Assembly (NCBI GenBank): GCA_004431415.1
Contig: QPMI01000479.1
Coordinates: 1-64,000, forward strand
Length of the DNA: 64,000 bases
Direction: 5' to 3'
Origin: Cyanophora paradoxa CCMP329
Taxonomy: Eukaryota > Plantae > Glaucophyta
Below are positions 1 through 44,545 of the stretch, in pieces. The notes beneath the pieces were generated by a model, which had not been told where the DNA came from, ran no database searches, and saw nothing but the letters and a program-made list of their open reading frames with translations. The stretch's first letter is position 1, and each line of letters begins with the position of its first letter. The translations under genes were made by a program, and so were the position numbers.

Positions 1-506
1 GATATCCAAACCTGTGGATTGCTGACTTTTACGAACTTGCAGATAAACGACAAGCGAACTTTGATTGCCCTGAATTGATCCAGACTATCCCCTTAAACGT
101 TTTGGTAGAGAGGTTGCAATTCTATCTAAATATTCAATCACATCTACAACAACTTCCCTTCTGGCTCTGTATGTGAGCCAGCGATATAATTCATTAATGC
201 TGTTCCATCTTCTGCCTCTGGTTCTATTTGCCTCAGGCGATCGAGTTCATCAAGAGTTCAACTTTATCATAGAGGTTATTGGCTTTTCTGGTTAATTTTG
301 CTAAAGTGGGTCTGCCCCTTGAAATAAATCCGATTTCCCGGTCATATTCAGCCTCTGTGATTTCATGGGCTGCATACAGTGTTCCCAGTAATCCATGTTC
401 CCATTTCTTTCTCTAATGAGTCTGTTGCTAATTCGGGCATTGTTCCTAACTTGTTCTACTAAAAGGGGAGGTTTTAAATGGGGAATTCTGAACACAAAAT
501 TTGATG

Positions 507-545
507 AAAACTACTTAAAGAAATATCTTCTATATATATAAAAGG
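507..545 (+). promoter_or_regulatory. Putative viral early promoter, copy 1
   Basis: AAAACTACTTAAAGAAATATCTTCTATATATATAAAAGG ends 3 nt before the ATG at 549, is preceded by AAAATTTGA (496-504), and is 38/39 identical to 1826-1864. Confidence 0.7.
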
Positions 546-548
546 ACA

Positions 549-1337
549 ATGGCAGAGAAGAAATCGTATTGCCTGGAAAAGCTCAAAGCGGCTTTAATGT
601 TGCTTTGTGGATCTGATAACTTCAATGATTATGTTGCTCTTGGAAGTAACAGGAAACCGCTCCCTCTTTGGGCAAAGCTTGCAAAATATGATTAAGTGAC
701 TATGACCTGCCTCCAGAGTCTGAGCATTGCGCCTGTGATCATCCAATTAAAGAGCAATGCTATATTCTGCATGTTAATAAAAAGATTGTGGTCATTGTTG
801 GGAATTGCTGCATTTTACGATTTATTCCGAAGGGTGCCAGAGGTCAAGATATATGTGAAAGATGTGGAGATCGGCATAAAAACCGAAAGGATAATTTCTG
901 TAATAAGTGCAGAATCGCTTTAAAGCAAGAAGAACTGGAAAGAAAAAGAGAACTTGAAAAAACAAGAGGAAGTCGAAAGAGGCAGCTTGAATTAGAAGAA
1001 AGAGAGCGAAGACAGAGAGAATTAGAACAGAAAGAGCAAGGAATAAACATGCAGTTAATCTTTTCCTGATTTGGTGAACCAATTTTATTCCGAAAATGGA
1101 TAATCTTCGCAGAGATGATATAGAGAGGTTCAGAGAGGGCAGATCTGCATTGATTGAAATGTATGCAGAACTCAGTACAACAAATACATTGGTTGCTGGG
1201 TTTCAGGTGCCTTATCTTAAAAAGATATCGCAAAAGGATTAGATTGCAGATGGAATAAGGACAAGAAAACATGGGAGACCTTGGAAATTGAACCATTTGT
1301 AGCATTGCTAGGTAAGCATTCAAACTTATGTATATGA
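549..1337 (+). CDS. Cys/His zinc-finger protein with coiled coil and C-terminal DUF5710-like domain (frameshifted)
   Basis: Joined frames read HCACDHPIKEQCYI...VGNCCILRF...CERCGDRHKNRKDNFCNKC, then an E/K/R-rich coil, then VPY..KKDIAKGLDCRWNKDKKTW (DUF5710-like). About 3 frameshifts are needed. Confidence 0.6.
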
Positions 1338-1364
1338 GCGATTTGGACAAAGAGGTTAGAGAAC

Positions 1365-1398
1365 AAAAAATGATTTAAAGAATTCTCTATATATATTA
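1365..1398 (+). promoter_or_regulatory. Putative viral early promoter, degenerate copy
   Basis: AAAAAATGATTTAAAGAATTCTCTATATATATTA lies upstream of the ATG at 1416 and has the same TTAAAGA...TCTATATATAT layout. Confidence 0.6.
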
Positions 1399-1415
1399 AG
1401 AGAGACAAAGGAAAA

Positions 1416-1658
1416 ATGCCACTCAGTGAAGCCCAGAAGAGAGCTATGAAAAGATATCAGCAAACTGAAAAAGGTAAGGCTCAAATCAAAAAGTTTAACG
1501 AAAAAATAGCCACACAGCTAAGAGATCTATATAACAATGATGATACTTATAGAGCCATGAAAATAGCCAGTTCATGTCAGCGAAGTATGCAGCCAATGCA
1601 GTCTGCTTTGTCAAGTATTTGTATGATGTCCCTTACTCAAACAGAGGGAGAAAATTGA
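1416..1658 (+). CDS. Small basic viral hypothetical protein (possible DNA-binding)
   Basis: MPLSEAQKRAMKRYQQTEKGK... follows the promoter motif. The C-terminus is probably frameshifted. Confidence 0.6.
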   Translation: MPLSEAQKRAMKRYQQTEKGKAQIKKFNEKIATQLRDLYNNDDTYRAMKIASSCQRSMQPMQSALSSICMMSLTQTEGEN

Positions 1659-1825
1659 AACATGTCTAAATTATTTTTCCCAGCATATTACTAGGCTGGG
1701 GATATGCTGTTTATTCGCTGAAATACCCATTCATCCTTTTTGTATCTGAACCACTCGATAAGTCGTGTGGAAATATTTCGTAGGGATACTTTCTCGATTT
1801 CCAACAAAAAATGATTGGGGGACCC

Positions 1826-1864
1826 AAAACTACTTAAAGAAAAATCTTCTATATATATAAAAGG
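1826..1864 (+). promoter_or_regulatory. Putative viral early promoter, copy 2 (primase-helicase)
   Basis: 39-bp near-identical copy of 507-545, preceded by AAAAAATGA and bracketed by an imperfect inverted repeat (ATTGGGGGACCC / GGGACCCCCAAT). Confidence 0.7.
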
Positions 1865-1882
1865 GACCCCCAATCGCTGAAA

Positions 1883-4206
1883 ATGAACGCCAAACAGACT
1901 AAATCGCTCAAATCGCTCGCTAACTGGCTCAGATCTGATGAGGATCTAGCCAAAAACATGATTATCCCGGTGAAACCTGACAGCAAAGACCCTGTTTTCA
2001 AGCATAAGGGAGGTGCTTGGTCCTGGGAAAGTATGAGGAAGCGCTGGCAACTAATCAGTATGTATCTTGGGGCATTCTGCTCTCAGACAACATGATGGTT
2101 ATTGACTTTGATGATGAGGAGAACTTTGAGAAATTCCGGGATATGTTTCCTGATGACTTTGATGCCAATCAGCCCATGGCAAAAACTAAAAAAGGCTATC
2201 ATGTCTACTTTAAACGACCTGAGGAGTTCACTAAACTCAAAATCACCGATAAGGCTCCTGGCTTTAAAGGCTTTGAAAAGGTTGACCTGAAAACAATCAC
2301 TGGAACTGGTACTTCTGGATTGATCAATGTGTGTCCCAGTGTCAACAAGGCTTGGGTGATCTCCCCATGGGATGATACCTGTGATTTCAATGAGCCTACT
2401 GATGACTTCAAAAAGTGGATAATAGATAACTACATCTATAAGAGTGAGTATACTGCTAATGCTACCTCACATGATGAACTGGAAAACAATATTATCAAAG
2501 AGCTGGTGGATATGGGATTTATGCATCCCAATATAATCTCTAAAACTGAACTTGGCTTTAACTTTGATGCTGCTAACAAGGGACTCAATTGCCCATGCTG
2601 CAATGGTTCACATGAATCGAATAACTGGTATGTTATGAAAGCTAAAGGAGATGATAACAAATACATTGTGTCAAGCTACAGTGGAAATTGCAAAAAACGA
2701 TTCATCTGCATTGGAATGCAATCTGATATCTTAATCTTATAGATAAATCCGCTGGTTCAGGTGGCGCTCATTATGATGTAAGTTTAGTATGCAAAGAGGT
2801 TCTGAAACACACTTGGAGATACTCCAAAAAGTCATGGTTCAAACTCAATACTGATACTGGGATTTGGGAGCTTGATGACACAAACCTTAAGATTTACCTA
2901 GATATAAGCCGTCTTGTTGTCCCCCAATACCTTGGAAGGGCTGTGCATTATAGTCAAAGAGCTTTAAAGGATGAGGAAAACAAAGCAGCTTTCGAAGAAA
3001 GATCCAAAACATTGATGACCATTGCCAAAAATCTTAAACAATCAGGATTTCGCAAATCCCTTCTGACTGACTTGGTCCCACTGCTGAATGATGATGAATT
3101 CTTTGAGAAGATTGACACAGTTCCATATGTGATTGGATTCGAAAATGGTGTATTTGATCTGACCACTATGACTTTCAGAAAGGGTAAACTGGAAGATATG
3201 GTGAGCAAGACTGTGGGTTATGACTATACTGAAAATGTAGACCCCAAGAAAGTGGAGCATCTCAATCAGATTTATAAAGAGATTGTGGATGATCCAGCAG
3301 AGCGAAAGTATCTTCTGGCATCCATTGCAATTGCCCTTAGTGGATCAACTAAATCCCAGAAGTTCTATATGTGGACTGGTGCTGGTGCTAATGGTAAATC
3401 ACTTGTTCAGGAATACTGCAAACAGATATCTGGTCGCTATTACAGCCCTCTCGAAATATCCTATTGGACTAAGCCTAAAAAGAACTCATCAGAGGCTACT
3501 CCTGAACTTGCCAAACTCCTTGGAAAGCGACTTGTATTCAGTAATGAGGCTGAAGATGGTGATAAACTGCAGATCTCCAAGATTAAGGAGGTCACAGGTG
3601 GAAATGAAATGACTGTGAGAGCCTTGTTCAAAGACCCAGTTATCCTTACCCCAATGTTTCAGGTCTACATTACAACTAATGACAATTTGACTATAAATAA
3701 ACCAGACTTTGCAATTCAAAGAAGACTTTCCTATCAGAGATTCAATAATATATTCAGAGAGAAGCCAGAAGCTGGTCAAAAGAAAGCTGACCCAACTCTG
3801 TTCACACTTCTACACAATGATGATGAGTATAAGATGGCTCACATGAAGATATTACTGGATATGTGGAAGAACAAAGAGGTTGAAGAGATCTTAAGAAGTC
3901 CCCTCAATCGATTATTGAACAGGGAATTAACTTTATAGCTGAAAATGATAAGATTGGTGAATGGCTTCGAGATAATTTCGAGGTTACACATAATGCTAAC
4001 GACTTTGTTTCCAGTGATATCATTTACAAATCATACAAAAGTGTTGATGATAAAGTTGAATGTGTATCTGTTATGAAGAGAGTAAGGGAGATCTTCAATG
4101 TTAAATCAGAGGTTAAACGAATTCATGGAACCAGAGCAAGGGCTACATTGGACTTCGAAAGATAACAAGGGTTCAAGAAGACAATGGAGAGGATGTTGAA
4201 TATTAA
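1883..4206 (+). CDS. Bifunctional primase-polymerase fused to D5-like superfamily 3 helicase (frameshifted; ORFs 1883-2095, 2017-2742, 2943-3938 plus tail)
   Basis: Prim-Pol motifs MMVIDFDD and TKKGYHVYF; Zn motif CPCCNGSHESN; D5_N-like IGFENGVFDLTT..FR; Walker A GAGANGKS; Walker B LVFSNE; motif C ITTN; AIQRR. Confidence 0.9.
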
Positions 4207-4249
4207 ACGAAACGATTAATGATTGATTTGTATATGTAATTTTTATAGC

Positions 4250-4378
4250 CTTACTGGAAATGGTGTTGTTCACAGGTGTCACAGGTCCATCCCAGGGAAA
4301 GTCAAACATAAAAAATGATTAAGAAAATCGGTGGGATAGACCTGTGACACCTGTGACACCTGTGACACCTGTGACACC
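4250..4378. repeat. Inverted iteron-like array A (9-bp ACCTGTGAC units), candidate origin
   Basis: CACAGGTGTCACAGGTCCATCCC, an A-rich spacer, then GGGATAG(ACCTGTGAC)x4, directly after the helicase gene. Two related copies lie at 21001-21318. Confidence 0.85.
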
Positions 4379-4445
4379 GATCGAAAAAGACCAAAATTTG
4401 ACAAGAATACTTAAGGCTTACTTGATTGTGTATAGTGAAGACAAA

Positions 4446-4667
4446 ATGGCAAAGACTCTTGATGAGATGACCATGACTGAGTTAGATAAATGCATAAAGC
4501 ATGGAGATATTGGAGCATATATCGAAATGTCACAGAGATTGATAGGTTACAATATGTATGCAGCAAAACCAAAAAGAAATAGATCAGTAAACATTCACAT
4601 TACTGTTTCAGTGTCTGAGAATGCAAACAAAAAACAACAAAAGCATATTTACAAAACTTATGTGTGA
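4446..4667 (+). CDS. Small viral hypothetical protein
   Basis: MAKTLDEMTMTELDKCIK..., preceded by an AAAATTTGA...ACTTAAG promoter-like motif (4393-4415). Confidence 0.5.
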   Translation: MAKTLDEMTMTELDKCIKHGDIGAYIEMSQRLIGYNMYAAKPKRNRSVNIHITVSVSENANKKQQKHIYKTYV

Positions 4668-4754
4668 CTTGATTGCAAGTATAAAGCCAATTCCTTTGTA
4701 TATATTTTTATAGCTGCCTCAGTGGCATACTGAGACCGCTTTTTCTCAATTATC

Positions 4755-5000
4755 TTATAGACCTGGGGGTCCATTGCTACTATCAGTGGGCAAATAATAT
4801 TTAATCGGTCTCCCTCTAGGTCTCTGCTCCTCTTTTTGGGCTTTTCTTCGATAATAGGATGCCAAAGCTTGTTGTTTCTTATACTCTCTATATTCTGGGT
4901 CCTCTCTATATCGTTTCTGCTTTGCCAGTATGTGTCTAATAGCACCCTCAGTTAAAGGCTCATCATTGGTAAACTCGATTAAACTAATTGTATCCTCCAT
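4755..5000 (-). CDS. Small basic protein with AT-hook-like motif
   Basis: Starting from the internal Met (MEDTISLIEF...), it has a basic helix KQKRYREDPEYREYKKQQALASYYRRK followed by RPRGRP. Confidence 0.5.
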   Translation of the reverse strand: MEDTISLIEFTNDEPLTEGAIRHILAKQKRYREDPEYREYKKQQALASYYRRKAQKEEQRPRGRPIKYYLPTDSSNGPPGL

Positions 5001-5256
5001 TAATATTTGCAGAGAAAACGTTTTCACCAGGTAAAGAACTTCTCCTTGGATACTCCTGTTGCTCATATGTATACTCTGTGGGGTCTGCTGGCATTGACTC
5101 CACAGACACTGTTGATCTTCTTCTCTCTCTTGCTTCTGAGGCATTATCCTCATTATCTGACATCTCAAACTCTATTGTTGTGTCACAGCATCCACTGTGG
5201 CAATTGCTGACCACATGCAGACTGAGCATCTCAATAAACTTTCGTATTATATCCAT
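4984..5256 (-). CDS. Small viral hypothetical protein
   Basis: 90-aa ATG ORF co-oriented with the structural module, with a short Cys cluster CHSGCC. Confidence 0.5.
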   Translation of the reverse strand: MDIIRKFIEMLSLHVVSNCHSGCCDTTIEFEMSDNEDNASEARERRRSTVSVESMPADPTEYTYEQQEYPRRSSLPGENVFSANINGGYN

Positions 5257-5325
5257 GTCTCTAATAAAACAGAGAAAATTAAAGCCAAACTCGTCTTTTA
5301 TATACTGTTGGGGCTACTCCCTTTT

Positions 5326-6010
5326 CTACTTCAGCTTTGGTGGCACCAGGTTCAATGGTTCCCTTTTGGGTTTTGTTTTCATTTCATCTACTGCCTGCTC
5401 ATCGATTTGGTTCTCTTTCTTAGCAATAAACTGTTTATCTGGGACACCAGTAATGCCCATTTTATAAACTTCCTTTCGAAGCATCTCCTTTAGCTTAGCC
5501 CTCTCTTTCTTCTCAGTAACATACTGCTCCAAGGCACTGGATTTGGCTTCCAAGTCTTTGAGTTTAGCAGTCATCTCATCCCATTGAGCTTTGGGAATTC
5601 GATGAATATTTTGAGTGGGAGCAGTCTTATATGTGACTTCACCAGCCATAGACTGGATAACCTTGTCTGATTCCTTACTTAGACCTTCACCTTTGCGAGC
5701 CAGTGATAGATCTTGCAAGCCTAAACCTTTATCATCAGCAGCACCAATAATTCGCCTGGCACCCTCAGCAACAGCTTTCATTTTTGAGGCTTCTGGTGAT
5801 ATATTGAGTTGGTCACTGGTTGAAGCCTGTGGGCTTTGTCATCGACTGATTCCTCATAGGCAGCATTGAGGGGTCTTCTTCTTGCTGTGAGGGCTTCACC
5901 TCATTCATACCATTGAATTTCATTGGTTCAGTATTAATGGATCCATTGTTTCCACCACCTGAATAGCCAACAGCCCCAGCTGGGATCCCTATCTTTCGTT
6001 TGGGAGGCAT
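5326..6010 (-). CDS. Viral hypothetical protein with coiled coil (ORFs 5813-6010 and 5326-5781 joined by a frameshift)
   Basis: Starts MPPKRK (NLS-like), has a K/E-rich C-terminus, and lies immediately downstream of the ATPase. Confidence 0.55.
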
Positions 6011-6088
6011 TGTATCTTTATTAGAATGAGAGATAATTTTATAAACCGCGTTTATATCGCATCAATTTATTGCTATGGACTTGGCTTT

Positions 6089-6819
6089 TCACTTCTTTGG
6101 GGCTTCCTCTTTTTCTGGTGGTTTCAGTTCATCCTCTTTCTTTTTTGGCTTCCTGTGGAAGCGAGGAAATGGGAAATCTTTCACAAGCTCAGCTTTATCT
6201 ACATAGTATTTAACTGAGTAGTTTGCAGAGGACCAAATGATATACTGATAGGAGTGAACATACTCTTCAAACATCTTGTAGAAATCCTCTTTATTTCGCA
6301 TTATATTGTATTCTTCCTCTATGGCTTCAAGTTCTTTGCGATTAGCAGCACTGAGAAACATAGCATAGTCAGAATTGACTCGAATAGTCGAAGAGACTTT
6401 TCTTAGCTTTTGTGTGATGCAGATAATGGATATTTTCGAATGGCGACCTCTGGAATACAGAGATCCGATTATTTTATCCTTGTGAGATCGACTATCTCAT
6501 TATCGATTAAATCATCTAAAACTACACATAACTGGTTAACAGGTTCACCCTTTTCTATTTTCTCTTGCCTCTCATCTAGCAATTTAGCAATGTAAGGGGC
6601 ATCCCATTTTCCCAGTTGCAGTGTTGCCACTTTATCCCAGAAATGATTGAAGCTGGTTCCACTCACAACTAATACAACATCAATCTTTTTGGCATCATGC
6701 AACTGCTTCAACCAATACTTTACAGCTTCTGATTTACCAGTTGCTGATTTTCCTATTGCCAATACACGAAATGGTGGTTCTATCATTTCACCAGCCACAA
6801 ATTCATCCAGATCATTCAT
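6089..6819 (-). CDS. A32/FtsK-family DNA packaging ATPase (one frameshift near 6470)
   Basis: Walker A GKSATGKS; Walker B CVVLDD; after the shift, SRGRHSKISIICITQ and IRVNSDY, which are A32 family signatures. Confidence 0.93.
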
Positions 6820-6884
6820 TGTTGTATATCTTTCTAAATAAAGACAGATAAAAATAATGCAGGAAGACTGAATATCGTAACAAT

Positions 6885-8253
6885 CTATAAATTAATTCTG
6901 CGTAAACCATCTTTGTCGACAATAAGGAAACTATGCATGAGAGCGCGAACATTAACATCAATTGTCTTATCTGAAGGCATGTAGAGGGTGAGGAATGAAG
7001 ATGAGGAATTTGTTAAATCAACATAACCAGACTGGGCAATATTTCGAATTGCCTTTTCTCCATCAAGGCAGAATGGGAGTCCTGAAAGGACATAGCGATC
7101 AGCAACCTTATCCATGTTAGAGCATTTGAAGGCATCAGCAATTAGCTCAGCACCTTTGAGTAGGGAAATTGGCTCAGTGGCAAAAAGTCGCTGACCATTT
7201 ATTTCAGTTGTAAATGTTATGTCTTTGGAGTTGGCATAGGTCTTAAGAACACTATGGGAGCCTGTGGATTTGTCAACAGTTGCATTATCACGAACTGAAA
7301 CAAGCAGAGCATATACAAGACCAGAGATTTGTGAGAGGTTGATTCGATTGGGTTGGGCATTGCCCTTAGCAGGGAAAGCAATAGCATCAACAAATCCAAT
7401 ATCAAGGGAGGGAATAGCCATGCCAGTAGTCTTAACCTTTTCAATTACAGTAGCAAACAGCTCATCAGAAACATTAATAGCATGCATGTAAAGGCGAGGA
7501 GAAGTAATTGAAATTTCAGGAGTTGTTGCACCAAGAGTAAAGCCTGTGATGTTTTGTCCAACATTTGCCAGAACAGTTTCAGCAGGGCAGTTCCAAGACC
7601 ATCATCTTTTGAATAATCTACATCAGCTGCTGCAACAGTAAGACCACGACCACCATAGATGTTTCAACATAGCCTTTTCCAACATCCTTAAACCAAACAG
7701 TAACAACCATTTCACCAGATAAAGCACCAAGGGAAGGTAGTGATTTAGCCAAGGCACAGGGATTTCAACGAAAAATGAGCCACCAAGTCGGTTGGTTCCA
7801 TGAGCAGGGATGCCATGAACCATGCCCATTGATCGCTTCTTTTTAGCTAGTTGATCTTCCGAATAATAGACCAGGGGAAATGAGCAAGGAAATCAGAGGG
7901 GATATGGTAGGTGTAAGATCCATAGGTAATTTCAAGTCGCTGAACTAAAGCACCAACTGGGCGAGTGTATCCATTGCGAACAAGGTCAGTATCGCCAGCA
8001 AAAGCAGTGATCTCTGGAAGGTCGAAAGCAAGTTCGAGTTTTCCACAGAAATTGTAGCGAGGTAGCTTGAAGGAAATGCGATTTCCTACATTATTTGTGA
8101 AAGTATTGCTGGGATTCACAACAACTAGAACTGGCTTTGACTTGGATTCGAGACCAAGCATAAGAGAGTTATCCAGGAAAAAGGCTTTCGCCTCCTCTGG
8201 GTTGTTAGGGCTTCTTTCAGCGAAAGTCTTTGAAGAGTGGAAGTGATATCCAT
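6885..8253 (-). CDS. Double-jelly-roll major capsid protein, PLV-type (frameshifted, ~455 aa)
   Basis: GNRISFKLPRYNFCGKLELAFDLP, ALVQRLEITYG, FFVEIPVPW, RINLSQISGLVYALLVSVR, FTTEINGQRLF. Size and position between ATPase and penton fit an MCP. Confidence 0.82.
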
Positions 8254-8306
8254 TATATTCTCTTTTATTATACTGCAACATAAAAAATCTACCAATGATC
8301 CTTAAT

Positions 8307-9315
8307 TTATGCGAAGTTTGTAATAACTGGATAGGAAGGGTGAAGCTGCGACATTCTCATCTTATAGTATTCATAAACTGGGTCCCCAGCTGGCTCATCA
8401 CCATAGCGAATTTCAAAGGTAAGGTGAACAGGTTGACCCTCGAAATCAATTGGTTCATTTACAGCATTCACAATATCAACCGAGAAAGTGGATAATCCAA
8501 CCTTCTTATTATAGTATTTGTAAAGTGGATGAGCCTCTGTCGAATTGTAAACTACATGCTCACCATAATCTTTGTCAGGGACCACTATTTTATGGAAGTA
8601 ACCAGTCAGAAGACCATCCCCACATTGCACCAGATCACCCAGCTCCTTTACTCTCACAAACAAAACACTATCCCTGGTCGTCTCAGGCTCAAATGAAGAT
8701 ATAATACCGTTCACTCGAGTCCCAGTAAAGATACCATCAGTGAGACCATCATAAACTTGTGATTTGATTGGGAATTGCCATATCTTCCAGGATCAAGACC
8801 AAAAAGTCGAGCTGAGCTTAACAGCTTTTGGATTGTTTGCAGGTTTGGGTTTACAGCAAGTGAGAAAGCCAGGTAAAACTTTTTTTCGGAATGGAAAATA
8901 ATTCGTTTCAGTGTCTCATCCCATTTGCAGCGAAGAGATGGTTTAGGATTTCTGTCATTAAACTTTTCATTTATAACATTCACCAGCTGTTGGTGGTTTT
9001 GAATGGGGTTTCGCGATTTACAATGAATTGTTTCCATTGTTCAAAATCAGCAGCTGGGCGAGTTGTTGGAATTCCTGTTATTCCAGCTCCTGCAAGTTCT
9101 TCAGAATAATAAATACTAAATGTGTTATCAACTGTAACATCTCCTGCTTTGGTTTCACCACTCACCATAGGGATGCTGTTATAAAATTCGGCTGAGACCA
9201 GTCTCACAGCCCTCACATTCTCATAAGTACTGGGGAGTCTTGCCACAAAGCTTGATGTGGGACCATCACCAGAGATTGTATTAAATGAGCTAACCTCGAT
9301 GTAATCCACAGGCAT
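8307..9315 (-). CDS. Minor capsid (penton) protein 1 (frameshifted)
   Basis: N-terminal SSFVARLPSTYENVRAVRLVSAEFYNS; C-terminal VLFVRVKEL...LSTFSVDIVNAVNEPIDFEGQPVHLTFEI, typical of a single-jelly-roll penton. Confidence 0.8.
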
Positions 9316-9344
9316 TCTTCTTTTATCTATATTTATATATTAAA

Positions 9345-10275
9345 ATGAATCGACTTGTTAATATTGATAGCAGGGATAGAAGCCAAGGACAAAATGAAAA
9401 CTCTTACAGGGTCACCCTCACAACTCCAGTAGAGAGACCAAGGGAATGCAGGGTTCTATATGCAGAGATTCCAAACAGTATCTATAACAGTGTGGGAACT
9501 GATCATCTAACAGTTCAGTTTAATTACCAAGATGGTTCATATAACCAAGTGATCACACAACAAGTGTATCCCCTTCCCAGTGGCTACATCAATCAGGGTC
9601 ATTTTGGGTAACACACCCTTATAATTATGGGCTGAACTATTCAAGCTTCCAAACCATTGCAGGCAAAACAGTAGCTTTTGAGTTCAAGATATTCTACAAC
9701 CCAACAACCTATAAAGTGGAGTTTTACAGTAACCATGAGTTTCGTTTTATTGCAAGCAACCAGAGAATAGGAAAGCTTTTGGGTGTAAGTTCTACTGAAT
9801 ACACCACTGGGTATTATAGCACTCCTCCTGTTGGTGGATCTCCCTATCGACCTGAGAACCTTTTAAAGTATGATGGCAAACCTATTACACCTGATCACCC
9901 AGCATGGGAATCACCTTCTCAGGACCCAGACTCTCCTCTAAGCCCTTGCAATATTATTTTGACAGCAGGAAGATGTCTGATATGAATGCTGAGCAGTATC
10001 TGTACATGCATATTAAAGAGCTGTCCCCCTTTGCCAGCAGACACAATATAATTCCAAAATCGCAACCACAAAATCAGGGAGCTATCCTTAGATTGCAATT
10101 GAGTAAGGATATAGGGGGCTATGTTTACCATAGTGGTGAGCATGCAGAATTTATTCAAATCAATGACAGAAACCTGGTGATAAGGGAACTCACAGTTGAA
10201 TTTAAAGATTACTTTGGTGAACTGATTGATATGAATGGAATCGATAATTCTTTTCAGTTGGAGTTTATCGAATAA
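9345..10275 (+). CDS. Minor capsid (penton) protein 2 (frameshifted)
   Basis: VNIDSRDR...YRVTL...VLYAEIPNSIYN; C-terminal YLYMHIKEL...IRELTVEFKDYFGELIDMNGIDNSFQLEF. Confidence 0.85.
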
Positions 10276-11816: not shown

Positions 11817-11859
11817 CTTTTACTTATCAGGAATTTTATAAATCCATATAGTAAAAGCC

Positions 11860-14800: not shown

Positions 14801-17581
14801 TATAACTCAACCTCTTTCAACATCTATTGCGTTAAAGATCACATCACCTGAAACAATAATAGATAATCTCACTGTTATTAGTAAAGCAAACCTTCCAAAC
14901 TATCCTACAAATGATGTGGTTCAAAATTGGATACGAAACCATACACACACCAAAGGTCAAATAACAGATTTCGCACACAAGCATTTATGGGAGGATATCA
15001 CGAATCCACCATTAACCTTTCCGCCTGATATTCACACTCATGATTATACCCAGATTACCAACTGCAATCACAGACACCCATGGAGCGAAATTGATCAACA
15101 ACCAGTATTTGCACAATTGAATGCAATCGGAAATATTTTTAATGGAGTTACACTTTACCAATCCAGTAATACAGCTGAAAGGTTATATTTGAATGATCAT
15201 TATGTCAGCCTCAATGGGACTTTTACAGGTCAAACAGGCACCCCCATGGTGGGAACTCTTGCAGTAAGATTACCCAGGGATCCTATTGTAAATGGAGCCT
15301 ATGATGGAGATTTTAATGTTAGTGTGACTGATACTTTCCCAGTATCTATGTAACGAATTATCACCCAGGAGAAACAGGACAAGAAGAGAATTTTTCAGCA
15401 GCAATTCAAGTAAATGTAACAGATCAAAGCGCATATGATGGAGCAAGACCTAAAATAGTTTTCACAAGGGAGAAAGTTGTAAACTACCTTCCTGTTGCGG
15501 GACAACCCACAGATGATCACGGAAAATGTGAGATGGCGTGGATAAAAACGTTATCAGGTGGCGCCTTAGAAGTCAATCAGAGAATGGCGGCGAAAAACTT
15601 ACACAATACCACCCTTTCCGGTGTTGTTACAGATGATTATTTAGAAAACAAAGATTATGTTACAAATACAGAATTACAATTAGCTGTTACAGATTTTGTT
15701 ACAGATACCGATTTAACGGCGGCACTTGCTAATTATCTACCTCTAACAGGTGGAACTGTAACAGGTACTGTGAATGCTACCACTTTACAAATTGGCGGAA
15801 CCACAATACCAAAAGGTTACGATTTCGACCAATTAGATGTGGTCTCATCAGATAGAAGCCCGAATAATTGGACTGTTACAGGATGGATACCAAGAACCGG
15901 ACAAACAGGATGTTATACAACACCAGCAAATGATGAAGATTGCAGCGGTTGTTGGATGAGGTGGGTTGTTCCGACAGGTATGAAATCGTTTTATATTCAG
16001 CACATGCCTTGGGGTAATTGTAGATATTTCGATATCTACGGGCAAACTGTTAATGGATATCAACATTTCTTAAAGCGTGTAAATGCTTATCAAGTAATTC
16101 AGGAAGTTAATCAAGGTGGAACACACAATTGTATTTTGTTTGTCTCTATTAATTGCGAATTCTACAAATATATTTATGTTCAAGGTCGAAAAGGTCGCAT
16201 TCATCTTACGGGGGTTTTCGGTTGGAGTAGACAAAGAGCAACGGATAATGAGGTTGGTATGATCTCTTGGGATAATATTTTTAGTAAACCATCATTTTAT
16301 TCAGCCGCAGACCTTCCACAAACAGCGACATGGCCAACAAATACATGGTTAAAATCAACCGACACTGTTCCGCGAATTTGGTTTGGAAATGGTGATTGCA
16401 CATATATTCGAGGTTATGGAAATAGTGGTGGTGTTTCAATTGAATTCAGAGACTCAGCAGATGGAGCAATATTAAAGTCTTATAACAATGGTAACTTTTG
16501 GGTGAAAAACACTATTACAGCGACCACTATTAATGCTACAACAGATCTTCAAATAAATGGTAATGCTGTTCCAAAGTTTCACACAGCAGATAAAACAAAA
16601 GGAGGTATTGAATTTAATAGATGTTCTTATGGCGATTGGACATGGGCGTGGAGTTCAGCATGGGATCCACATTATAATTATGGTTCATATGTTCATAATA
16701 ATCAAACGGATGATCAAACTTCTACCGCTTGGATTGACTTCGATATTCCAGAAGGATATCACACAGGAACAGCGTTTTTAACTTATCTACCTTGGACTAA
16801 CTCACGAATTTTTGAAATTTGGGGACTGAATCGACAAGGGAATGAAGTTTTTATTACATCAGTGAATAGTTATCAACCATACGCCACATCGCCTGATGGT
16901 AACCACAGTGGTGTAAATAATGTTCCGATACATCTTGGTAATCGATTTCTCACAATTCGAATTAGACCAAAGATTGGAAGAGTTCACATTATGGGTATAA
17001 GTTACATGAAAATATGGGTAGGAAATAGTTATGGTGGTCACACCGGCTATATTCATTGGAATAATGTTTATAGTAAACCAAATATCTTAACAGGAACTGT
17101 GGGGACTTGGTTTAATTCCAGTGATGGATATAATCGAATTCATTTCGGTAACAATGATTCTACATATTTGAAAGGAAGAGGAACTTATCCAATAAGATTT
17201 CGAAATGAATTAGATTCTAATATTTGTTGGATCGATCATGACGGGCGGATGTGGATAAACAATTATTTAACACAAGGAAGTGACAGAAGATACAAAACCG
17301 ATATTAAAAAGATAACCGGCGCTCTTTCAGCAATTGAAAAATTGGAAGGAGTGAGTTTTAAACGAATTGGGAGTGAAAAAGACGGAACAAAATTAGGTTT
17401 AATTGCGCAAGATGTAGAAAAGGTAATACCAGAAATTGTAAGTGTCACAAAAGAAGATGGTTACCTTTCTCTCGAATACACGGGTTTAATTCCAGTTCTC
17501 ATTGAAGCTGTGAAGGAGTTGTCCCAAAAATGCAAAGATCTACAGGATCAAATAGACCAAATTAAAAATGTCAAAGTATAA
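11860..17581 (+). CDS. Giant modular fibre/spike protein with C-terminal Peptidase S74 intramolecular chaperone (ORFs 11860-12438, 12485-13207, 13407-15353 and 15533-17581 read as one ~1,900-aa gene)
   Basis: Frames run through the inter-ORF gaps with single-base shifts. Motifs: fibre motif KDLGIRTRQWRNIH, HxH repeats, LamG-like EIIVFNRALTAEE, and terminal SDRRYKTDI...LGLIAQDVEKVIPEIV...YTGLIPVLIEAVKEL. Confidence 0.85.
12850..13140 (+). repeat. Coding acidic repeat (EExLPDGxDPxExEY, ~5 units of ~20 aa)
   Basis: GAGGA...CCAGATGG recurs at roughly 60-nt spacing within ORF 12485-13207. Confidence 0.85.
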
Positions 17582-17584
17582 TAA

Positions 17585-17890
17585 ATGGCGACCTATCCTC
17601 TTGGTGGAACCACCTATTCTACTGAGCCTGTTGCGCTTTCTTTTGATACAATCACCCTTGTAAACGCATTACAAACAGTTGAAAAAACGATTCAGCAAAC
17701 TAACAAGCTCTCACCAGTTGTCAATGAGTATAAAAACCTCTTGGTTAATGTCCTTGCTCAAGCTGCATATGGTGACCCTGTTGCTAAATACACTGAGTGT
17801 GATAACAACATTAAAGCAATGACATCCAACCTGCAAGTTCTTTCAACTGTTTACCAATCCCTTGGATCGAATTTAATCACTTTGGCTTGA
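17585..17890 (+). CDS. Small helical viral protein downstream of the fibre
   Basis: Intact 101-aa ATG ORF starting 3 nt after the fibre stop codon. Confidence 0.65.
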   Translation: MATYPLGGTTYSTEPVALSFDTITLVNALQTVEKTIQQTNKLSPVVNEYKNLLVNVLAQAAYGDPVAKYTECDNNIKAMTSNLQVLSTVYQSLGSNLITLA

Positions 17891-17929
17891 TTGCAGTTTA
17901 TTTTTCTTTCCTTCTTAGTAAAAGAAGCA

Positions 17930-18784
17930 ATGGGTGAATATAATCGAGTTCAACTGCCTATATATTCCCTTGGATCCCCTGCAATGCATTTTCGCCAGCA
18001 TGAAGTAAATGATGAGGTTCGTGGTTTAGAATCCACAGAGAGACCCAATTCCAATGGCAACTCCTTTGATAAAAATTCGATTATTCGAGTTAAAGAGCTG
18101 AGAGCTGATAAGAATTCTGGTGTGGTTAAAACAACTCGACTTCTTGTCACAAATGCTAACTTTTTCCAGCCTACCAATGGAGGTCCTGATGCTTACAGTG
18201 TTGATCTGAAAGCCCTTGATTTCGATAAGAATTCTGCTGCTGTAACTGTGAGATCAGGAGGAGCATTTATTGGTGGTGGCTGCAGAGTTTCAGGTCAGCT
18301 ATCTTCATCTGTTTCCTACAATGATGTCCCAGATACTCTCGAACAAAATGTGGAGAACCCACAACGAATTCGTTTCTACACACCTGTTGCACAGCAACCT
18401 TTTTTGCATTTCTATGTTGCATCCTCTGTAACTCTTGAGAATTCGGAATTAGTTTCCATTACAGGAACTGATCGAGTAAGAAGAAATATTCCTCTTCCCA
18501 CTGCAATGCTTTCCATGTGTAGAGCCAATAATAATCAACCAGGACACAACTACTTATTCTTTGTTCAAGCTTCGAACCATTTTGGCAGAGGATATTGTGT
18601 TTATAACAATTTGACATTTACCTATGATCTGTTTGTCACTGAGGTTGGAGTATACAATACTATGATTATGGGACTGAGAACAGATATAGCAGCTGTATCA
18701 GCACTTCGTGGGGTAAATGTTGCTGATATATTCACAACAGGATTTTACCAAGAATTAGATGTAATTGATGACCCAACCCCATAA
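17930..18784 (+). CDS. Short fibre/spike-like protein, paralogue 1
   Basis: ATG at 17930. Shares ELRxDKNxGxVKTTxLLVTNANF and SGGAxIGxGxRVxG with the next gene; C-terminal GVYNTMIMGLRTD. Confidence 0.65.
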   Translation: MGEYNRVQLPIYSLGSPAMHFRQHEVNDEVRGLESTERPNSNGNSFDKNSIIRVKELRADKNSGVVKTTRLLVTNANFFQPTNGGPDAYSVDLKALDFDKNSAAVTVRSGGAFIGGGCRVSGQLSSSVSYNDVPDTLEQNVENPQRIRFYTPVAQQPFLHFYVASSVTLENSELVSITGTDRVRRNIPLPTAMLSMCRANNNQPGHNYLFFVQASNHFGRGYCVYNNLTFTYDLFVTEVGVYNTMIMGLRTDIAAVSALRGVNVADIFTTGFYQELDVIDDPTP

Positions 18785-18807
18785 AAGATATATCCCTTTA
18801 ATGTAAA

Positions 18808-19641
18808 ATGGCTGAGCAACCCCCACTTGAACGAATTATTACACCTCAACTATCATTAGCTGCCCCAGCAAACCATGTTTTACAGCATGCTACTTTTGAT
18901 GATGTAGAGGGTCTCCAATCAACAGAGGTCCAACCTACAATGAACACCTTTGGTTCCACCCATAAACTGAGATTACAGGAACTCAGATGTGATAAAAATA
19001 ATGGAATAGTTAAGACAACTAAGCTACTTGTTACCAATGCAAACTTTTCTGCTCATTATGGAGACCCAGATAGCTATGGAGATCCTCTTTCTACTTATTC
19101 TTTTGAATCTAGGTCGGGAGCTATTAACTGCAAATCGGGGGGAGCTTATATTGGTGATGGTCTTAGGGTTGGTGGGGCTGTTGGAGCGCCTCTATTTGTG
19201 AATGATCAACCCAATCCCATTGATCCCAACACAAGAATTCGAACCTATGTCCCCAGCATGAATGCCCCCTATATAATCAAGATATTCCCCATTGTTGTAA
19301 ATGAACAAACAGCAGTAGTAGATTCTCTTGTTGAGATTGGTGACCACTACAAGGTAGTTGTGGATATTCCACCAGATGTTTATGCTGTATGTCAAGTGGA
19401 GGGTGGAACTCCTAATTTTGCAGTTGTGATCACCCCATATGATAATTTCGGAATTGCTTATCATGGAGTCAATTTCGGTTTGGAAGACTATCAGTTTCTT
19501 GTGAGAGCCACCAAGTTTGGTATCTACAAGTGTGTGATGTTTGCAGAGAGAACCGATTTTATTGCAAAGCAGAATACCTATGCTGAATACTATGGGACAA
19601 ATCGATATTTTCCCATTTTTGGGCAGGATACTGCTCCATAA
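18808..19641 (+). CDS. Short fibre/spike-like protein, paralogue 2
   Basis: Intact 277-aa ORF and clear paralogue of 17930-18784; C-terminal GIYKCVMFAERTD. Confidence 0.65.
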   Translation: MAEQPPLERIITPQLSLAAPANHVLQHATFDDVEGLQSTEVQPTMNTFGSTHKLRLQELRCDKNNGIVKTTKLLVTNANFSAHYGDPDSYGDPLSTYSFESRSGAINCKSGGAYIGDGLRVGGAVGAPLFVNDQPNPIDPNTRIRTYVPSMNAPYIIKIFPIVVNEQTAVVDSLVEIGDHYKVVVDIPPDVYAVCQVEGGTPNFAVVITPYDNFGIAYHGVNFGLEDYQFLVRATKFGIYKCVMFAERTDFIAKQNTYAEYYGTNRYFPIFGQDTAP

Positions 19642-19663
19642 GAATATTGGTTATATATAGAGT

Positions 19664-19936
19664 ATGGATAGTAAAACAAAAAAGTTTATTGATGCTGCTA
19701 TGACAGTTCATGGTAAAGATAAATTCGATTACAGTGAGACACATTACATCAAAGCTCAAGAGAAAGTATCTGTGAGATGTTTGCAGTGTAATAAAGTGAT
19801 CCTTACCTATCCCTTTAATCATGTGAAGGGATCAGGTTGTAGGGAATGCAACAAAAAGCATTCTCAGGCTTACAGGAAAAGGGCTACTTCATCAATCAAA
19901 GTAGAGTACAGGGATATTTGCATTAGGTTCGATTAG
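19664..19936 (+). CDS. Stand-alone zinc-binding domain of the DUF723/homing-endonuclease-associated type
   Basis: KFIDAAMTVHGKDKFDYSETHY...VSVRCLQC...PFNHVKGSGCREC; no nuclease domain follows. Confidence 0.75.
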   Translation: MDSKTKKFIDAAMTVHGKDKFDYSETHYIKAQEKVSVRCLQCNKVILTYPFNHVKGSGCRECNKKHSQAYRKRATSSIKVEYRDICIRFD

Positions 19937-19965
19937 GATTAATTAATTTTTCTAAGGTATTCTTA

Positions 19966-20364
19966 ATGGAGACTAAATACAGAGGCTTTCATGTAATGCT
20001 TGATTACAAGGCTAAAACAGCTATAGCAACAGGTTATGAGCATGTTAGCTTCCTAGGTAATTGGATTATGGGAACCCTTGAACAAGCAGTATTGAGACAA
20101 GGTATTAGGATTGTTCATAAGCATTGTGAGATATTTGATGGCAAACTATCACCTCCTGGTTTTGCATTGGTTCTGCTATTAGATGAAAGCCATTGCACAG
20201 CTCATTGTTATTCCAATGAAGGCATGTTAGCAATTGATATATTCAGTTGTGGTAAAGAAGCTCAGCATAAAACACAAGCAGTTGCAGATGAGATCGATAA
20301 AACAATGAATTTCCTCACATTTGAGAAGACTGAGAGACATAAACATGATAGATTCCCGTTTTGA
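19966..20364 (+). CDS. speD: Prokaryotic-type S-adenosylmethionine decarboxylase proenzyme (AdoMetDC/SpeD family)
   Basis: 132 aa. GFHVMLD, PPGFALVLLLDESHCTAHCYSNEGMLAIDIFSCG, with the E|SH autocleavage site and the D(I/V)F(S/T)CG motif. Confidence 0.88.
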   Translation: METKYRGFHVMLDYKAKTAIATGYEHVSFLGNWIMGTLEQAVLRQGIRIVHKHCEIFDGKLSPPGFALVLLLDESHCTAHCYSNEGMLAIDIFSCGKEAQHKTQAVADEIDKTMNFLTFEKTERHKHDRFPF

Positions 20365-21000
20365 TAGGTTTATATAATGATAATCAGGGTAATTTACCTT
20401 TTTTATTACAAAAGCTTTCTACAATGATTATTTTCCGGATTCCGGTCATTCTTTACGATAGAAATTCTACTGTATGATGTAGCCGAAATATGAATGCACC
20501 CTACATTAAGCAATGTCAAATAATTAGAATAATGTTCGATTTCCTTACACTAAAACCTCAGCATCTGCCCTAGATTCCCCCTATAATTAAAGTGGAATCA
20601 AGGTTGACTCATATTAATCGATAGTATATGGATTTTGTTACGAATTCAATGCAAGGTTGACTAAGTGGTTGAGTTGACTCAATTTCACAGAAATAACAAT
20701 GAATCAGAGTATAAATGCATTTTTTTTGAATCAACTACACAACTAACTGAGATAGTAGAAGATATCATATAGTATACCATATATGGTTTGTCAGCACTAT
20801 AATATAGTTGTCAGCAGTAATATAGTATGTCAGCATTGTCAGGCACCTTTTAGAAACTTTTAAAATTGAAATTTCATGTTAATCCAAACAATGACTTAGC
20901 CAAATAAAATACTTTATGAAATCGATAGATTAATGCTGACAATAAATGCTGCTGAAAGATTAACACCAACTAACACTGAGATTTTCACAATATATGAGGT

Positions 21001-21111
21001 CCTTACTGAATATGGTATGTGTCACAGGTGTCACAGGTCTATCCCAAAGTTTTCTATAGCATAAAAATGAACTCTCAAAAGTTTGGGATGGACCTGTCAC
21101 ACCTGTCACAC
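21001..21111. repeat. Inverted iteron-like array B
   Basis: GTGTCACAGGTGTCACAGGTCTATCCCAAA...TTTGGGATGGACCTGTCACACCTGTCACAC; homologous to 4250-4378. Confidence 0.85.
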
Positions 21112-21198
21112 TCGATTATTTCATTTGTTTATTCAAGTAGAATTACATAGATAAACTTCTTACTTATTGTTACTGAGTTTTTCATTATAAAAGAGGCT

Positions 21199-21341
21199 CT
21201 TACCATAAATGGTGTTGTTCACAGGTGTCACAGGTCTATCCCAAAGTTTTCACATATATAAAAATCAACTCTCAAAAGTTTGGGATTGACCTGTGACACC
21301 TGTGACACCTGTGACACCCAAATTCTAAGGGTCCCCCTTAG
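21199..21341. repeat. Inverted iteron-like array C plus small hairpin
   Basis: AAATGGTGTTGTTCACAGGTGTCACAGGTC (identical to array A)...GGGATTG(ACCTGTGAC)x3, followed by CTAAGGG-TCC-CCCTTAG. Confidence 0.85.
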
Positions 21342-21558
21342 ACTCAACAAAACAATGATAAAATCATATAAGTTTCATGTATAATTACGATTGAATTCAA
21401 TAAGAGATCGATTTGTTAATATAAACAAATGAATCATTTATGGATCTTAATCGAGTTTAGCGATATATTTCCGATTAAATGAATTAAATTTAATTAAATT
21501 TAATCGAGAAAGTACATGAATATAATATCGATTAAATCAATTACCTTTTAGACCAATC

Positions 21559-21841
21559 ACACATAGTAAAATGCGGAGTTTTAACCAGAGGCAAGATCTA
21601 ATTGAGATTCAGTTATATTATTCGGAAATATATACAGATTATCGATTGACTCAGTAAGACTAATCGGAAAATAAGAGAAATTTACGATAAAATATCGAAA
21701 AGAATACAAAATAATCGAAATAATTGAATATTCGATAAGATATACACAGATTATCGATTGATTGAAATAGAATATACGAGATATATCAACAAAATCAATT
21801 AAGATAAGCCGAGGGTTAAAACTCCGCATTTTACTATGTGT
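21559..21841. repeat. Terminal cassette bounded by a perfect 28-bp inverted repeat
   Basis: ACACATAGTAAAATGCGGAGTTTTAACC (21559-21586) and its exact reverse complement (21814-21841), located at the AT/GC boundary. Confidence 0.92.
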
Positions 21842-23750
21842 CTTTAGGCGTTCGTGTGCGCACTCTGACAATATCGCGATGGGGCTCCGTCTCGAATCCA
21901 GTAAAGACAAGCTTCACAACTCTTCCAGCCGGGGCCGAAATTAACCTATGACAACTTCAAAAACGCAAGAGCGAACGCATAAAGAGAGACAAGAACAGAA
22001 AGCCGCAAATGTAGCTGACCACTCCCGGGGAGTCGCCACCAAGCCATTCTCGTAGTTTGACGCGCCAGATCCATCGTCGAATGGAACAGACAGAGAGTTG
22101 TCTGTCAAGGCGATGCTGCAAGGATTGTAGGACGTGCAAGCGAACGCGCCGCTCCCTGATTTAAGTGCCGCAGCCACCGCACATACGACCACGAACGAAT
22201 AAAGTGTGACCTGTCGACCCCTAAGCGCATGCGTATACTTACTACAAGTACTCGCCAGTGCACGTGCTGTTCGGGCTCGCGATCGCGCGCTTGTTCGGAG
22301 GCTACGCAACTGCATATGAAAGTGATGTTGCTACTGCTGCTTTATCTTGTACATTAGATCTATCTGTATATATAGGCAGCCGATACGCATGCGCATATGC
22401 ACGTTAGAGCTTGATACTGCTCGCTTTAGATGTTTAGCTATAGCCTGTAGCTGGCAGCTATGTCCGACGGTCTATCGATATCTTTCCTAGCGCTGGTCAT
22501 GAATTCGAAGCTCATGTGATGTGCGGGTTGCTGCAGCTGCGCTCAATAGCTAGGTATGCGTATACCTATATATGATAGCTGCTCGAGGGGATCATGCAAC
22601 TTGATGTAAGGCACGCGCAGACCGGTACCGGACCGTCGGCCGCGGACAGCTGCAGCGCGTGCTCAGTGTATCTACAATAAGCAGCTGGCACTGCCTGGCA
22701 GTACCTGGCAGAGGCTGGCACTGCCTGCTGCCAGGCTGCTGGCACAGTCACTGAGTGGCCCAGTGGCCCAGCGGCACAATAGCCTAGTTGCCTAGTACTA
22801 GGCTAGTAGCCAGTACCGTGGTAGTACGGTGGTACTCAATGTACTCAGGCTGCACGATCTGCCGGCGCCAGCTGCAACTTAAGCCTGCAAGCCTAGGCTG
22901 CACGCCAGTACTAGTGCACGGTCTGCACCGTCACTGTACCGTGCAACATCAATGATCAGTATTAATGCTGCCGCACCGTGGCACTGCGCATGCGCAGTGC
23001 CGCGCCGCGGCGTGTGCGGCGTGCTCTACTAGGCTACCGTCCTCTACGTACTGTTCGGTAGTACAGACTGTACAGTGCTACACTGCACACTGCCGCAGTG
23101 CCGCCAGTGCGGACTCACTGCGGAGGCTTGCAATTGCTACCGTAGTACTACTATACTAGTACAGTAGTAGTACTACCGGTCTAGTACCGGACGTTACTAA
23201 GTTAGAGCTTGATACCGTAGTACTGCGCGCCCGCGGCCGCCGCGCCCGGGCCGGGCCCCGGCCCGGGGGCCGGCGGGGGCCGGCCCGGCCGGGGCCGGCG
23301 GGCCGCGCCGGCGGCCGCCGCCGGCGGCCGGCCGGGCCGCGCGGCCCCGCGGGCCCGCGCGCGGGCGCGGCGGGGCGCCGAGCGCGTGCCACGGTGCTGG
23401 CCCAGCCCAGTGGCACTGTCACGCCGTGACGTGCACGTGCACCGTGGCACTGCGCAGTGCGCACTGCGCACTGCGGCAGTGCGCCGCGGCGGCTGCCAGT
23501 GCCTCGCCGAGTCGGCCGGGCTCGGGCTCGGTCTCGGGCTCGGAGCCTCAGGGCCTCGGACAGAGTCGGACTCTGGCCCGGGACTCTGGGAGTCTGGGCC
23601 GGGAGTCTGTCTCTGGGACTCCGGGAGCCTCCGAGCCTGTCCGAGAGTCGGAGGTCGTTAACGTTCGAGGCTCTAACATTCATGCGCGGTACGTACCTAC
23701 TACCTCGATTGGTGCTTAAGTACGTACATGCCGATTCGGGACCCGAAATA

Positions 23751-44527: not shown

Positions 44528-44545
44528 GTGCACGGGCGGCATTTC

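What the first reader, a model, noticed from the sequence alone, without database searches (positions are those of the whole stretch)
1..21843. Endogenous Polinton-like virus with an unusually rich accessory gene set, integrated in a GC-rich protist genome
Seen: the complete morphogenesis module (MCP, pentons, A32 ATPase) plus primase-SF3 helicase in an AT-rich block that ends sharply against intron-rich host DNA. Established: this module defines PLVs/virophages/Mavericks. Inference: a recently integrated and possibly still active element that replicates through Prim-Pol/SF3; no pPolB, protease or integrase occurs in these 21.8 kb.
Basis: partly seen in the sequence, partly recalled or inferred. 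Interest (0 to 1): 0.8.

Follow-up and report, generated by a model that had tools for sequence, protein, structure and literature searches.

The report
Common algal endogenous polinton-like virus copy
This is the right-hand 21.8 kb of a small DNA virus inserted in an alga's genome, most likely one of the hundreds of already catalogued copies in Cyanophora paradoxa; its gene set is typical of that family, and the only fresh detail is a phage-style repeat site where it likely starts copying its DNA.

Summary
The element is real. Window 1-21841 is 33-43% GC against 50-78% host DNA. It encodes a Prim-Pol/D5-SF3 helicase, an A32 ATPase, a double-jelly-roll capsid (shown by folding its 61%-identical intact homolog), two probable pentons (weak evidence), patatin-discoidin, two fibres and an AdoMet decarboxylase. 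Short-read contigs of two DNA runs cross the right junction at single-copy depth, while the element body is hundreds of times deeper. The capsid is 81% identical over 108 residues to a published Cyanophora paradoxa endogenous MCP. A published table of 156 glaucophyte PLVs already lists AdoMetDC (66), lipase (89), S74 fibre (37), rve integrase (85) and no protease (0). So 'unusually rich accessory set' is not supported. The frameshifts look like long-read errors. Core genes are CpG-depleted, which fits silencing more than activity. Not found in my paper searches: three inverted 9-bp iteron hairpins, one just after the helicase gene, whose motif sits next to primase-helicases in phages; a giant-virus-like AdoMetDC; a swappable fibre cassette. 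The scan noted the iteron-origin idea before on other DNA. New member of a known kind; interest 0.3.

The parts
1..21841 (.). Endogenous polinton-like virus, right part; left end lies beyond the window
   Evidence: GC and CpG shift; contigs run over the window's first base
1..443 (-). Unidentified gene running off the left edge, in pieces
   Evidence: no family hit beyond weak SHOCT
549..1310 (+). Zinc-ribbon plus coiled-coil protein, in pieces
   Evidence: weak PHROG DNA-binding hit E 1e-4
1883..4165 (+). Prim-Pol / D5-type SF3 primase-helicase, frameshifted in the assembly
   Evidence: Pfam Prim-Pol, D5_N, DUF5906; PHROG primase E 3e-48 and C-terminal piece; TIGR01613 E 7e-28, under its cut-off
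4270..4378 (.). Iteron hairpin 1: inverted sets of 9-bp repeats around an AT-rich spacer, about 105 nt after the helicase gene; candidate origin
   Evidence: (z -5.6); motif linkage
6089..6819 (-). A32-type packaging ATPase, frameshifted
   Evidence: Pox_A32 E 1.7e-5; Walker A and B
6885..8253 (-). Double-jelly-roll major capsid protein, frameshifted
   Evidence: published homologs in PMC10120064 Table S2
8307..9315 (-). Possible second penton-like protein, in pieces
   Evidence: recalled motif pattern only; no hit
9345..10275 (+). Probable penton (minor capsid protein), three pieces
   Evidence: intact 314-aa homolog P0017 covers all pieces; weak Atlas support
10312..11819 (-). Patatin-like phospholipase with C-terminal F5/8 type C (discoidin) domain, in pieces
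   Evidence: catalytic motifs present; fusion described for glaucophyte PLVs
11860..13407 (+). Unidentified, partly repetitive acidic protein(s), in pieces
   Evidence: no family hit
13455..15353 (+). Fibre-like protein 1 with weak Laminin_G_3 domain; middle part is low-copy
   Evidence: contig 14012-15122 at about twice host depth with no differences
15533..17581 (+). Fibre protein 2 with C-terminal Peptidase_S74 chaperone; not CpG-depleted
   Evidence: Pfam E 5e-16; PHROG tail fibre hits
17585..17890 (+). Small unknown ORF, 101 aa
   Evidence: no credible hit
17930..19641 (+). Two paralogous unknown ORFs (284 and 277 aa)
   Evidence: 34% identity over 254 aa; no family hit
19664..19936 (+). 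Zinc-finger repeat of the kind found in HNH/endonuclease proteins
   Evidence: PHROG E 3e-9
19966..20364 (+). Class 1b-type S-adenosylmethionine decarboxylase homolog, intact, with the ESH self-cleavage motif
   Evidence: Pfam E 3e-11
21019..21111 (.). Iteron hairpin 2
   Evidence: (z -7.6)
21219..21318 (.). Iteron hairpin 3
   Evidence: (z -8.7)
21559..21841 (.). Terminal 283-bp fold-back: perfect 28-bp inverted repeat arms (21559-21586, 21814-21841) around an AT-rich loop
   Evidence: (z -8.9)
21864..21953 (-). Probable host exon of a CUB-like domain; the element appears to sit 22 nt into the next intron
   Evidence: three weak PDB hits (E 0.25-1.3), all CUB-containing proteins by recall; no Pfam hit

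Best explanation
This is an integrated copy of a multi-copy polinton-like virus, most likely of the published Cyanophora family, which is probably kept silent by host CpG methylation and, once activated, would copy itself with its Prim-Pol/SF3 protein from an iteron origin and package the DNA in a double-jelly-roll capsid. Shown: the genes, the junction, the high copy depth, the repeats and their linkage to primase-helicases elsewhere. Inferred: the helicase binds the 9-bp repeats and melts the AT-rich spacer; the A32 ATPase fills the capsid; fibres and patatin-discoidin serve attachment and entry; an rve integrase, encoded left of the window or supplied by sister copies, inserted it; a giant virus may act as helper. 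The frameshifts are mostly assembly errors.
For: Capsid. Family: PMC10120064 Table S4 gives 366 MCP hits in C. paradoxa; PMC12220804 Table S6 gives, of 156 glaucophyte PLVs, A32 139, rve 85, YR 0, protease 0, pPolB 49, D5_N 40, Prim-Pol 8, S74 37, lipase 89, AdoMet_dc 66 (columns mapped by me). Junction: one 1478-nt contig 21815-23290 in both X1 and X8 at depth 105 and 91, against 120 and 114 for a host contig; most element bins 5,000-41,000. Errors: all 23 distinct indels shown are one base missing from the window, 20 of 23 in a run of the same base; contig 531-1012 has 0 substitutions and 3 gaps. Origin: a relaxed motif gave 41 public loci; 10 of 41 have an adjacent D5/SF3 ORF by my profile against 0 of 77 control loci; Pfam confirms 8 D5-type and adds 5 VapE-type ORFs within about 150 nt; the layout matches PICI origins (PMC6092414 passages). 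Silencing: CpG across codon junctions 0.0-0.43 of expected in 7 of 8 ORFs.
Against: Left end, TIR pair, target-site duplication and integrase are outside the window and untested. Junction contigs hold only 27 element letters. Short-read contigs pool many copies, so they show intact versions in the family, not that this copy is intact; 80 and 26 further indels were not shown. The 41 motif loci include duplicates, 12 had no long ORF nearby, the controls are not matched, and my profile was iterated on those loci. Two of the three hairpins lie 17 kb from the helicase gene. Pentons are weakly supported. CpG depletion is not a methylation measurement. Host species rests on homolog labels and on scan notes.
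Confidence: 0.85

Rival explanations
1. Same virus, but this copy is a decayed relic whose core genes are truly broken.
For: Many frame breaks in 1-13.4 kb; strong CpG loss; pooled contigs cannot clear this copy.
Against: Breaks are one-way single-base losses mostly in homopolymers; catalytic motifs are intact; the low-copy segment has no differences over 1111 nt; PMC10120064 describes such false frameshifts in multi-copy elements.
Confidence: 0.2
2. Replication starts at the ends: the 283-bp terminal fold-back primes synthesis as a hairpin, and the iteron sites are secondary or only came along with the helicase gene.
For: Perfect 28-bp arms ending at the terminus; terminal palindromes are reported with non-pPolB replication genes in Halocafeteria elements (bioRxiv 10.64898/2026.07.28.741278 passages).
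Against: The loop is 227 nt and only partly paired, unlike the 52-nt palindromes described there; the iteron motif is tied to the same protein class in phages.
Confidence: 0.25
3. Chimeric assembly: a free virus or another copy was joined to host DNA.
For: Multi-copy repeats are error-prone; junction contigs fall short of the 31-letter bar.
Against: The junction words are in two runs at single-copy depth, and the contig starts where a many-copy end joining a unique flank should start. Either run might be of the same culture as the assembly, which does not affect this point. An inner mosaic of sister copies cannot be excluded.
Confidence: 0.04
4. A fragment of an endogenous giant virus.
For: The capsid model ranks NCLDV capsids above virophage ones; the AdoMetDC groups with giant-virus contigs.
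Against: No polymerase, transcription or other NCLDV core gene; Pfam Capsid_NCLDV does not hit the window's MCP pieces; discrete end; compact PLV gene set.
Confidence: 0.03

Closest known systems
Endogenous PLVs of Cyanophora paradoxa (PMC10120064 Tables S2, S4; PMC12220804 Table S6)
   Same: MCP 61% identical to P0001, whose sequence is listed in Table S2, and 87 of 108 residues identical (my hand count, window 8200-7877) to the tig00021571 entry; A32, no protease, D5/Prim-Pol, S74 fibre, lipase, discoidin-patatin, AdoMet_dc all tabulated.
   Different: Nothing at family level. Whether this very copy is among the 156 or 366 counted could not be checked. Iterons, terminal fold-back and AdoMetDC origin are not in the passages I read.
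Protease-less PLVs (Aquintoviricetes-type, as described in PMC12220804; TsV-N1 and Gezel-14T recalled as examples)
   Same: MCP, penton, ATPase without protease; primase-SF3 helicase in place of pPolB; phage-like fibres.
   Different: No tree against reference PLV capsids was built; both Cyanophora MCP clusters fall under 'Iterative HMM searches', not a named group (my column count).
PICI / SaPI pri-rep-ori module and phage Prim-Pol-D5 replicons (PMC6092414; loci L108, L113, L131, L137)
   Same: Two inverted iteron sets flanking an AT-rich spacer next to a primase-helicase; nearly the same repeat word; two phage contigs also carry a second distant copy.
   Different: Bacterial hosts; function tested there, untested here.
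Maverick/Polinton elements and virophages
   Same: Double-jelly-roll capsid, packaging ATPase, integrated low-GC state.
   Different: No pPolB or protease found in the window; capsid model scores lower against Sputnik and mavirus (Z 12) than against NCLDV capsids (Z 15-23).
Class 1b AdoMetDCs of Algavirales and phages (PMC9992855)
   Same: Small prokaryotic-type proenzyme with the self-cleavage serine.
   Different: Carried by a PLV with no spermidine synthase in the window; substrate untested, and some viral homologs act on arginine or ornithine instead.

Membership tests
Polinton-like virus | Double-jelly-roll MCP | tested here: met
   Via intact homolog P0001; window gene not folded whole
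Polinton-like virus | A32-type packaging ATPase | tested here: met
Polinton-like virus | Single-jelly-roll penton | tested here: inconclusive
Polinton-like virus | Replication gene (pPolB or primase-helicase) | tested here: met
   Prim-Pol/D5-SF3
Polinton-like virus | 14-40 kb genome with terminal inverted repeats | not testable with these tools
   Left end outside the window; no genome held; at least 21.8 kb
Polinton-like virus | Integrase (rve or tyrosine recombinase) | tested here: inconclusive
   None in the window; 85 of 156 glaucophyte PLVs have rve, none YR
Polinton-like virus | Integrated in a protist chromosome with a composition shift | tested here: met
Cyanophora endogenous PLV family | [quoted passage not shown] | tested here: met
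   61% to P0001, which is listed in Table S2
Maverick/Polinton (Polintoviricetes) | Protein-primed PolB | tested here: inconclusive
   Absent from the window; left part unseen; a primase-helicase is present instead
Maverick/Polinton (Polintoviricetes) | Maturation protease | tested here: inconclusive
   Absent from the window; 0 of 156 in the family table
Virophage (Maveriviricetes) | Virophage-type MCP | tested here: inconclusive
   Model scores Z 12 to Sputnik and mavirus, well below NCLDV capsids; the family table lists 0 virophage MCPs; no tree built
PICI-type iteron origin | Two inverted iteron sets around an AT-rich spacer beside the primase-helicase gene | tested here: met
PICI-type iteron origin | Rep-dependent replication from the site | not testable with these tools
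   needs experiment
Class 1b AdoMetDC | Fold family and self-cleavage serine | tested here: met
   TIGR03330 hit is below its cut-off
Class 1b AdoMetDC | Activity on S-adenosylmethionine | not testable with these tools
   needs assay; homologs may be ADC or ODC

The most novel reading that the evidence does not exclude
Glaucophyte PLVs took an AdoMet decarboxylase from giant viruses and use it as an anti-silencing weapon: with no spermidine synthase of their own they drain SAM and build up decarboxylated SAM, a DNA-methyltransferase inhibitor, loosening the host's CpG silencing so that integrated copies can wake and replicate from phage-type iteron origins.
Probability: 0.1. Interest if true: 0.75.

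Novelty: new member of a known kind. Interest (0 to 1): 0.3.

Why it matters
As a locus it adds little: the family, its copy number and its accessory genes are already tabulated. It matters modestly as a test bed, because Cyanophora can be cultured. How pPolB-less PLVs start replication is open, and this copy offers two concrete candidates, an iteron site beside the helicase gene and a terminal fold-back. The AdoMetDC, present in 66 of 156 family members but not discussed in that paper's main text, could link a small virus to polyamine supply or to host methylation. Its giant-virus relatives hint at what a helper virus of glaucophytes might look like.

Tried and rejected
Searches for free relatives: MCP piece in viral contigs gave one marginal 30-residue hit, not followed; helicase and penton homolog gave none; P0001 in metagenomes gave none; these are word-based and insensitive. 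The representative search gave 6 hits, one of them (P0003, a repeat protein) dropped as spurious. PDB sequence searches with P0001 and P0017 found nothing credible. The single-sequence fold of P0017 failed and was not searched. The two penton candidates show no BLAST similarity. No RNA holder listed; contigs of runs only guessed to be RNA covered diverged copies at 10.1-10.7, 18.6-20.6 and 21.3-21.8 kb and are not used as evidence. My early guess of a tyrosine recombinase was dropped when the family table showed rve 85, YR 0. A recalled likeness to the phage P4 repeat word was not confirmed in print. The AdoMetDC tree is a quick tree of 91 rows, 128 columns, without cellular references, and the context of P0009 and P0010 is unknown, so direction of transfer is untested. 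The tRNA-Ala call at 23259-23355 lies in a GC-only repeat and is rejected. Paper searches with no paper: 'adenosylmethionine decarboxylase'+'Polinton', 'Polinton-like'+'iteron'; 'virophage'+'iteron' gave one phage-satellite paper (listing only). Bellas Dataset S1, Zenodo files and bioRxiv supplements were not seen and may describe this locus.
Full report
Observation. The first 21.8 kb are 33-43% GC per kb and the rest 50-78%, with the step near 21.84 kb. Genes in 1-13.4 kb are broken into frames. Pfam finds Prim-Pol (weak), D5_N, DUF5906, Pox_A32, patatin, F5/8 type C (weak), Peptidase_S74 and AdoMet_dc. A scan of 114 six-frame fragments found no pPolB, protease, rve or tyrosine recombinase. 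The host side has F-box and Cys-repeat genes split over frames and two U5 snRNA genes.

Capsid. The C-terminal piece of 8253-6885 found one homolog, P0001 (456 aa, 61% identity), labelled Cyanophora paradoxa. It aligns across the window gene through several frame changes. Its model (mean pLDDT 61, 7 sequences) matches PBCV-1 and iridovirus capsids (E 1e-16; Z 22.6, rmsd 3.6, 325 aligned). The pentons are weaker: 9345-10275 has an intact homolog with only weak Atlas support and a failed fold; 9315-8307 rests on a recalled pattern.

The family is known. PMC10120064 (I read parts 1 and 2 of 7, passages and supplement rows) lists P0001's sequence as a confirmed MCP and a closer one that matches the window at 87 of 108 residues by my hand count, and counts 366 MCP hits in C. 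paradoxa. PMC12220804 (sections 10 and 11, passages, supplement rows) tabulates 156 glaucophyte PLVs: A32 139, protease 0, pPolB 49, D5_N 40, Prim-Pol 8, rve 85, tyrosine recombinase 0, S74 37, lipase 89, AdoMet_dc 66 (column mapping is mine). Its text reports discoidin, alone or fused to patatin, in 11 glaucophyte PLVs and calls S74 fibres ubiquitous. The accessory set is therefore ordinary for this family, and the missing protease is the family norm.

Junction and copy number. Fourteen DNA runs hold about 0.65 of the words of 15001-25000; I laid two. In both, one contig spans 21815-23290 at depth 105 and 91, close to a host contig at 120 and 114. It carries 27 element letters, under the tool's 31-letter bar, but that is where a contig should begin when a many-copy end meets a unique flank. 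Most element bins are 5,000-41,000 deep; summed depth is no copy number, but it agrees with a large family. A perfect 28-bp inverted repeat ends at 21841 and contigs of two other runs stop there, so I place the end at 21841. The flank reads as a CUB-like exon followed by an intron into which the element is inserted (weak hits; no Pfam hit). This is an inference.

Frameshifts. All 23 distinct indels shown are single bases missing from the window, and 20 extend a run of the same base; 80 and 26 more rows were not shown. A 483-nt contig at about 20 times host depth differs by no substitution and 3 gaps, while a low-copy 1111-nt segment has no difference. Catalytic motifs of the ATPase, primase and patatin are intact. 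This fits long-read error left unpolished in repeats, as PMC10120064 describes. It does not prove that this copy is intact.

Modularity and silencing. The replication region is mostly 2,000-14,000 deep against 10,000-41,000 for most of the capsid region, in line with only part of the family using D5. Fibre middles are low-copy, and one joint skips 986 nt of fibre 2. CpG across codon junctions is 0.0-0.43 of the synonymous expectation in 7 of 8 ORFs but 1.12 in fibre 2; host CpG is 1.11 of expected. C. paradoxa methylates repeats and viral genes at CpG (PMC12344493 passages). I infer long residence under methylation for the core and recent arrival of fibre 2. Activity is not shown.

Candidate origin. 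Three copies of an inverted 9-bp repeat structure occur, at 4270-4378 just after the helicase gene and at 21019-21111 and 21219-21318. A relaxed pattern found 17 viral and 24 genome loci. Ten of 41 have an adjacent D5/SF3 ORF by my profile, against 0 of 77 unmatched control loci. Pfam confirms 8 of these and adds 5 VapE-type helicases; 12 of 41 had no long ORF within 400 nt, and several loci are duplicates. The layout is that of PICI origins, two iteron sets around an AT-rich region (PMC6092414 passages). I put the origin role at about 0.6. The rival is end-priming from the 283-bp terminal fold-back, by analogy with Halocafeteria elements (preprint passages). I reached this reading before consulting the scan's notes, which hold the same idea for other genomes; those notes are not support.

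AdoMetDC. The ORF is intact with the self-cleavage motif. In a quick tree it groups (SH-aLRT 97) with two proteins of unknown context and three metagenome loci. One of these, L013, carries Capsid_NCLDV, D5, Erv1, RNase III and a capping-enzyme domain; L014 carries D5, Erv1 and RNase III in the same order. This suggests exchange with giant viruses; direction is untested. Viral homologs can be AdoMetDC, ADC or ODC (PMC9992855 passages). Decarboxylated SAM inhibits DNA methyltransferases in mammalian cells (PMC6213949 passages), which motivates the anti-silencing idea; plain polyamine support is more likely.

Verdict. A genuine endogenous PLV of a catalogued family: new member of a known kind, interest 0.3. 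The testable extras are the iteron site, the terminal fold-back and the enzyme's substrate.

Noticed in passing
window 507-545, 1371-1400, 1826-1864: A shared AT-rich motif lies just upstream of three + strand ORFs on the replication side, including the primase-helicase; candidate promoter.
   Followed up: partly
window 61023-61133 and 63857-63967: Two U5 snRNA genes inside a 206-nt identical repeat, 2834 nt apart.
   Followed up: partly
window 54600-62400: Tandem F-box gene copies at about 6-6.5 kb spacing.
   Followed up: partly
window 29700-37700 (+): Intron-rich gene with many ephrin-receptor-like Cys repeats and a likely membrane segment.
   Followed up: partly
window 41135-48175: 35-nt inverted repeat arms 7 kb apart enclosing long GC-skewed ORFs, one with a C2H2 finger; possibly a transposable element. 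A second 148-nt inverted pair lies at 46055-46202 and 51240-51387.
   Followed up: no
window 23150-25150: Low-complexity, palindrome-rich repeat at raised depth, with several 32-nt repeats; one contig joins the element's end to a flank like this repeat, suggesting another insertion there.
   Followed up: no
L013, L014, L015: Giant-virus-like metagenome contigs whose AdoMetDC is closest to the window's among fetched loci, next to Erv1 and RNase III.
   Followed up: partly
L099/L108 and L107/L113: Two GC-rich phage contigs each hold two copies of the iteron hairpin about 36 kb apart, one directly before a Prim-Pol-D5 gene.
   Followed up: partly
window 21331-21841: The terminal 511 nt is CpG-rich (2.1 of expected) while the element core is depleted (0.32).
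   Followed up: no
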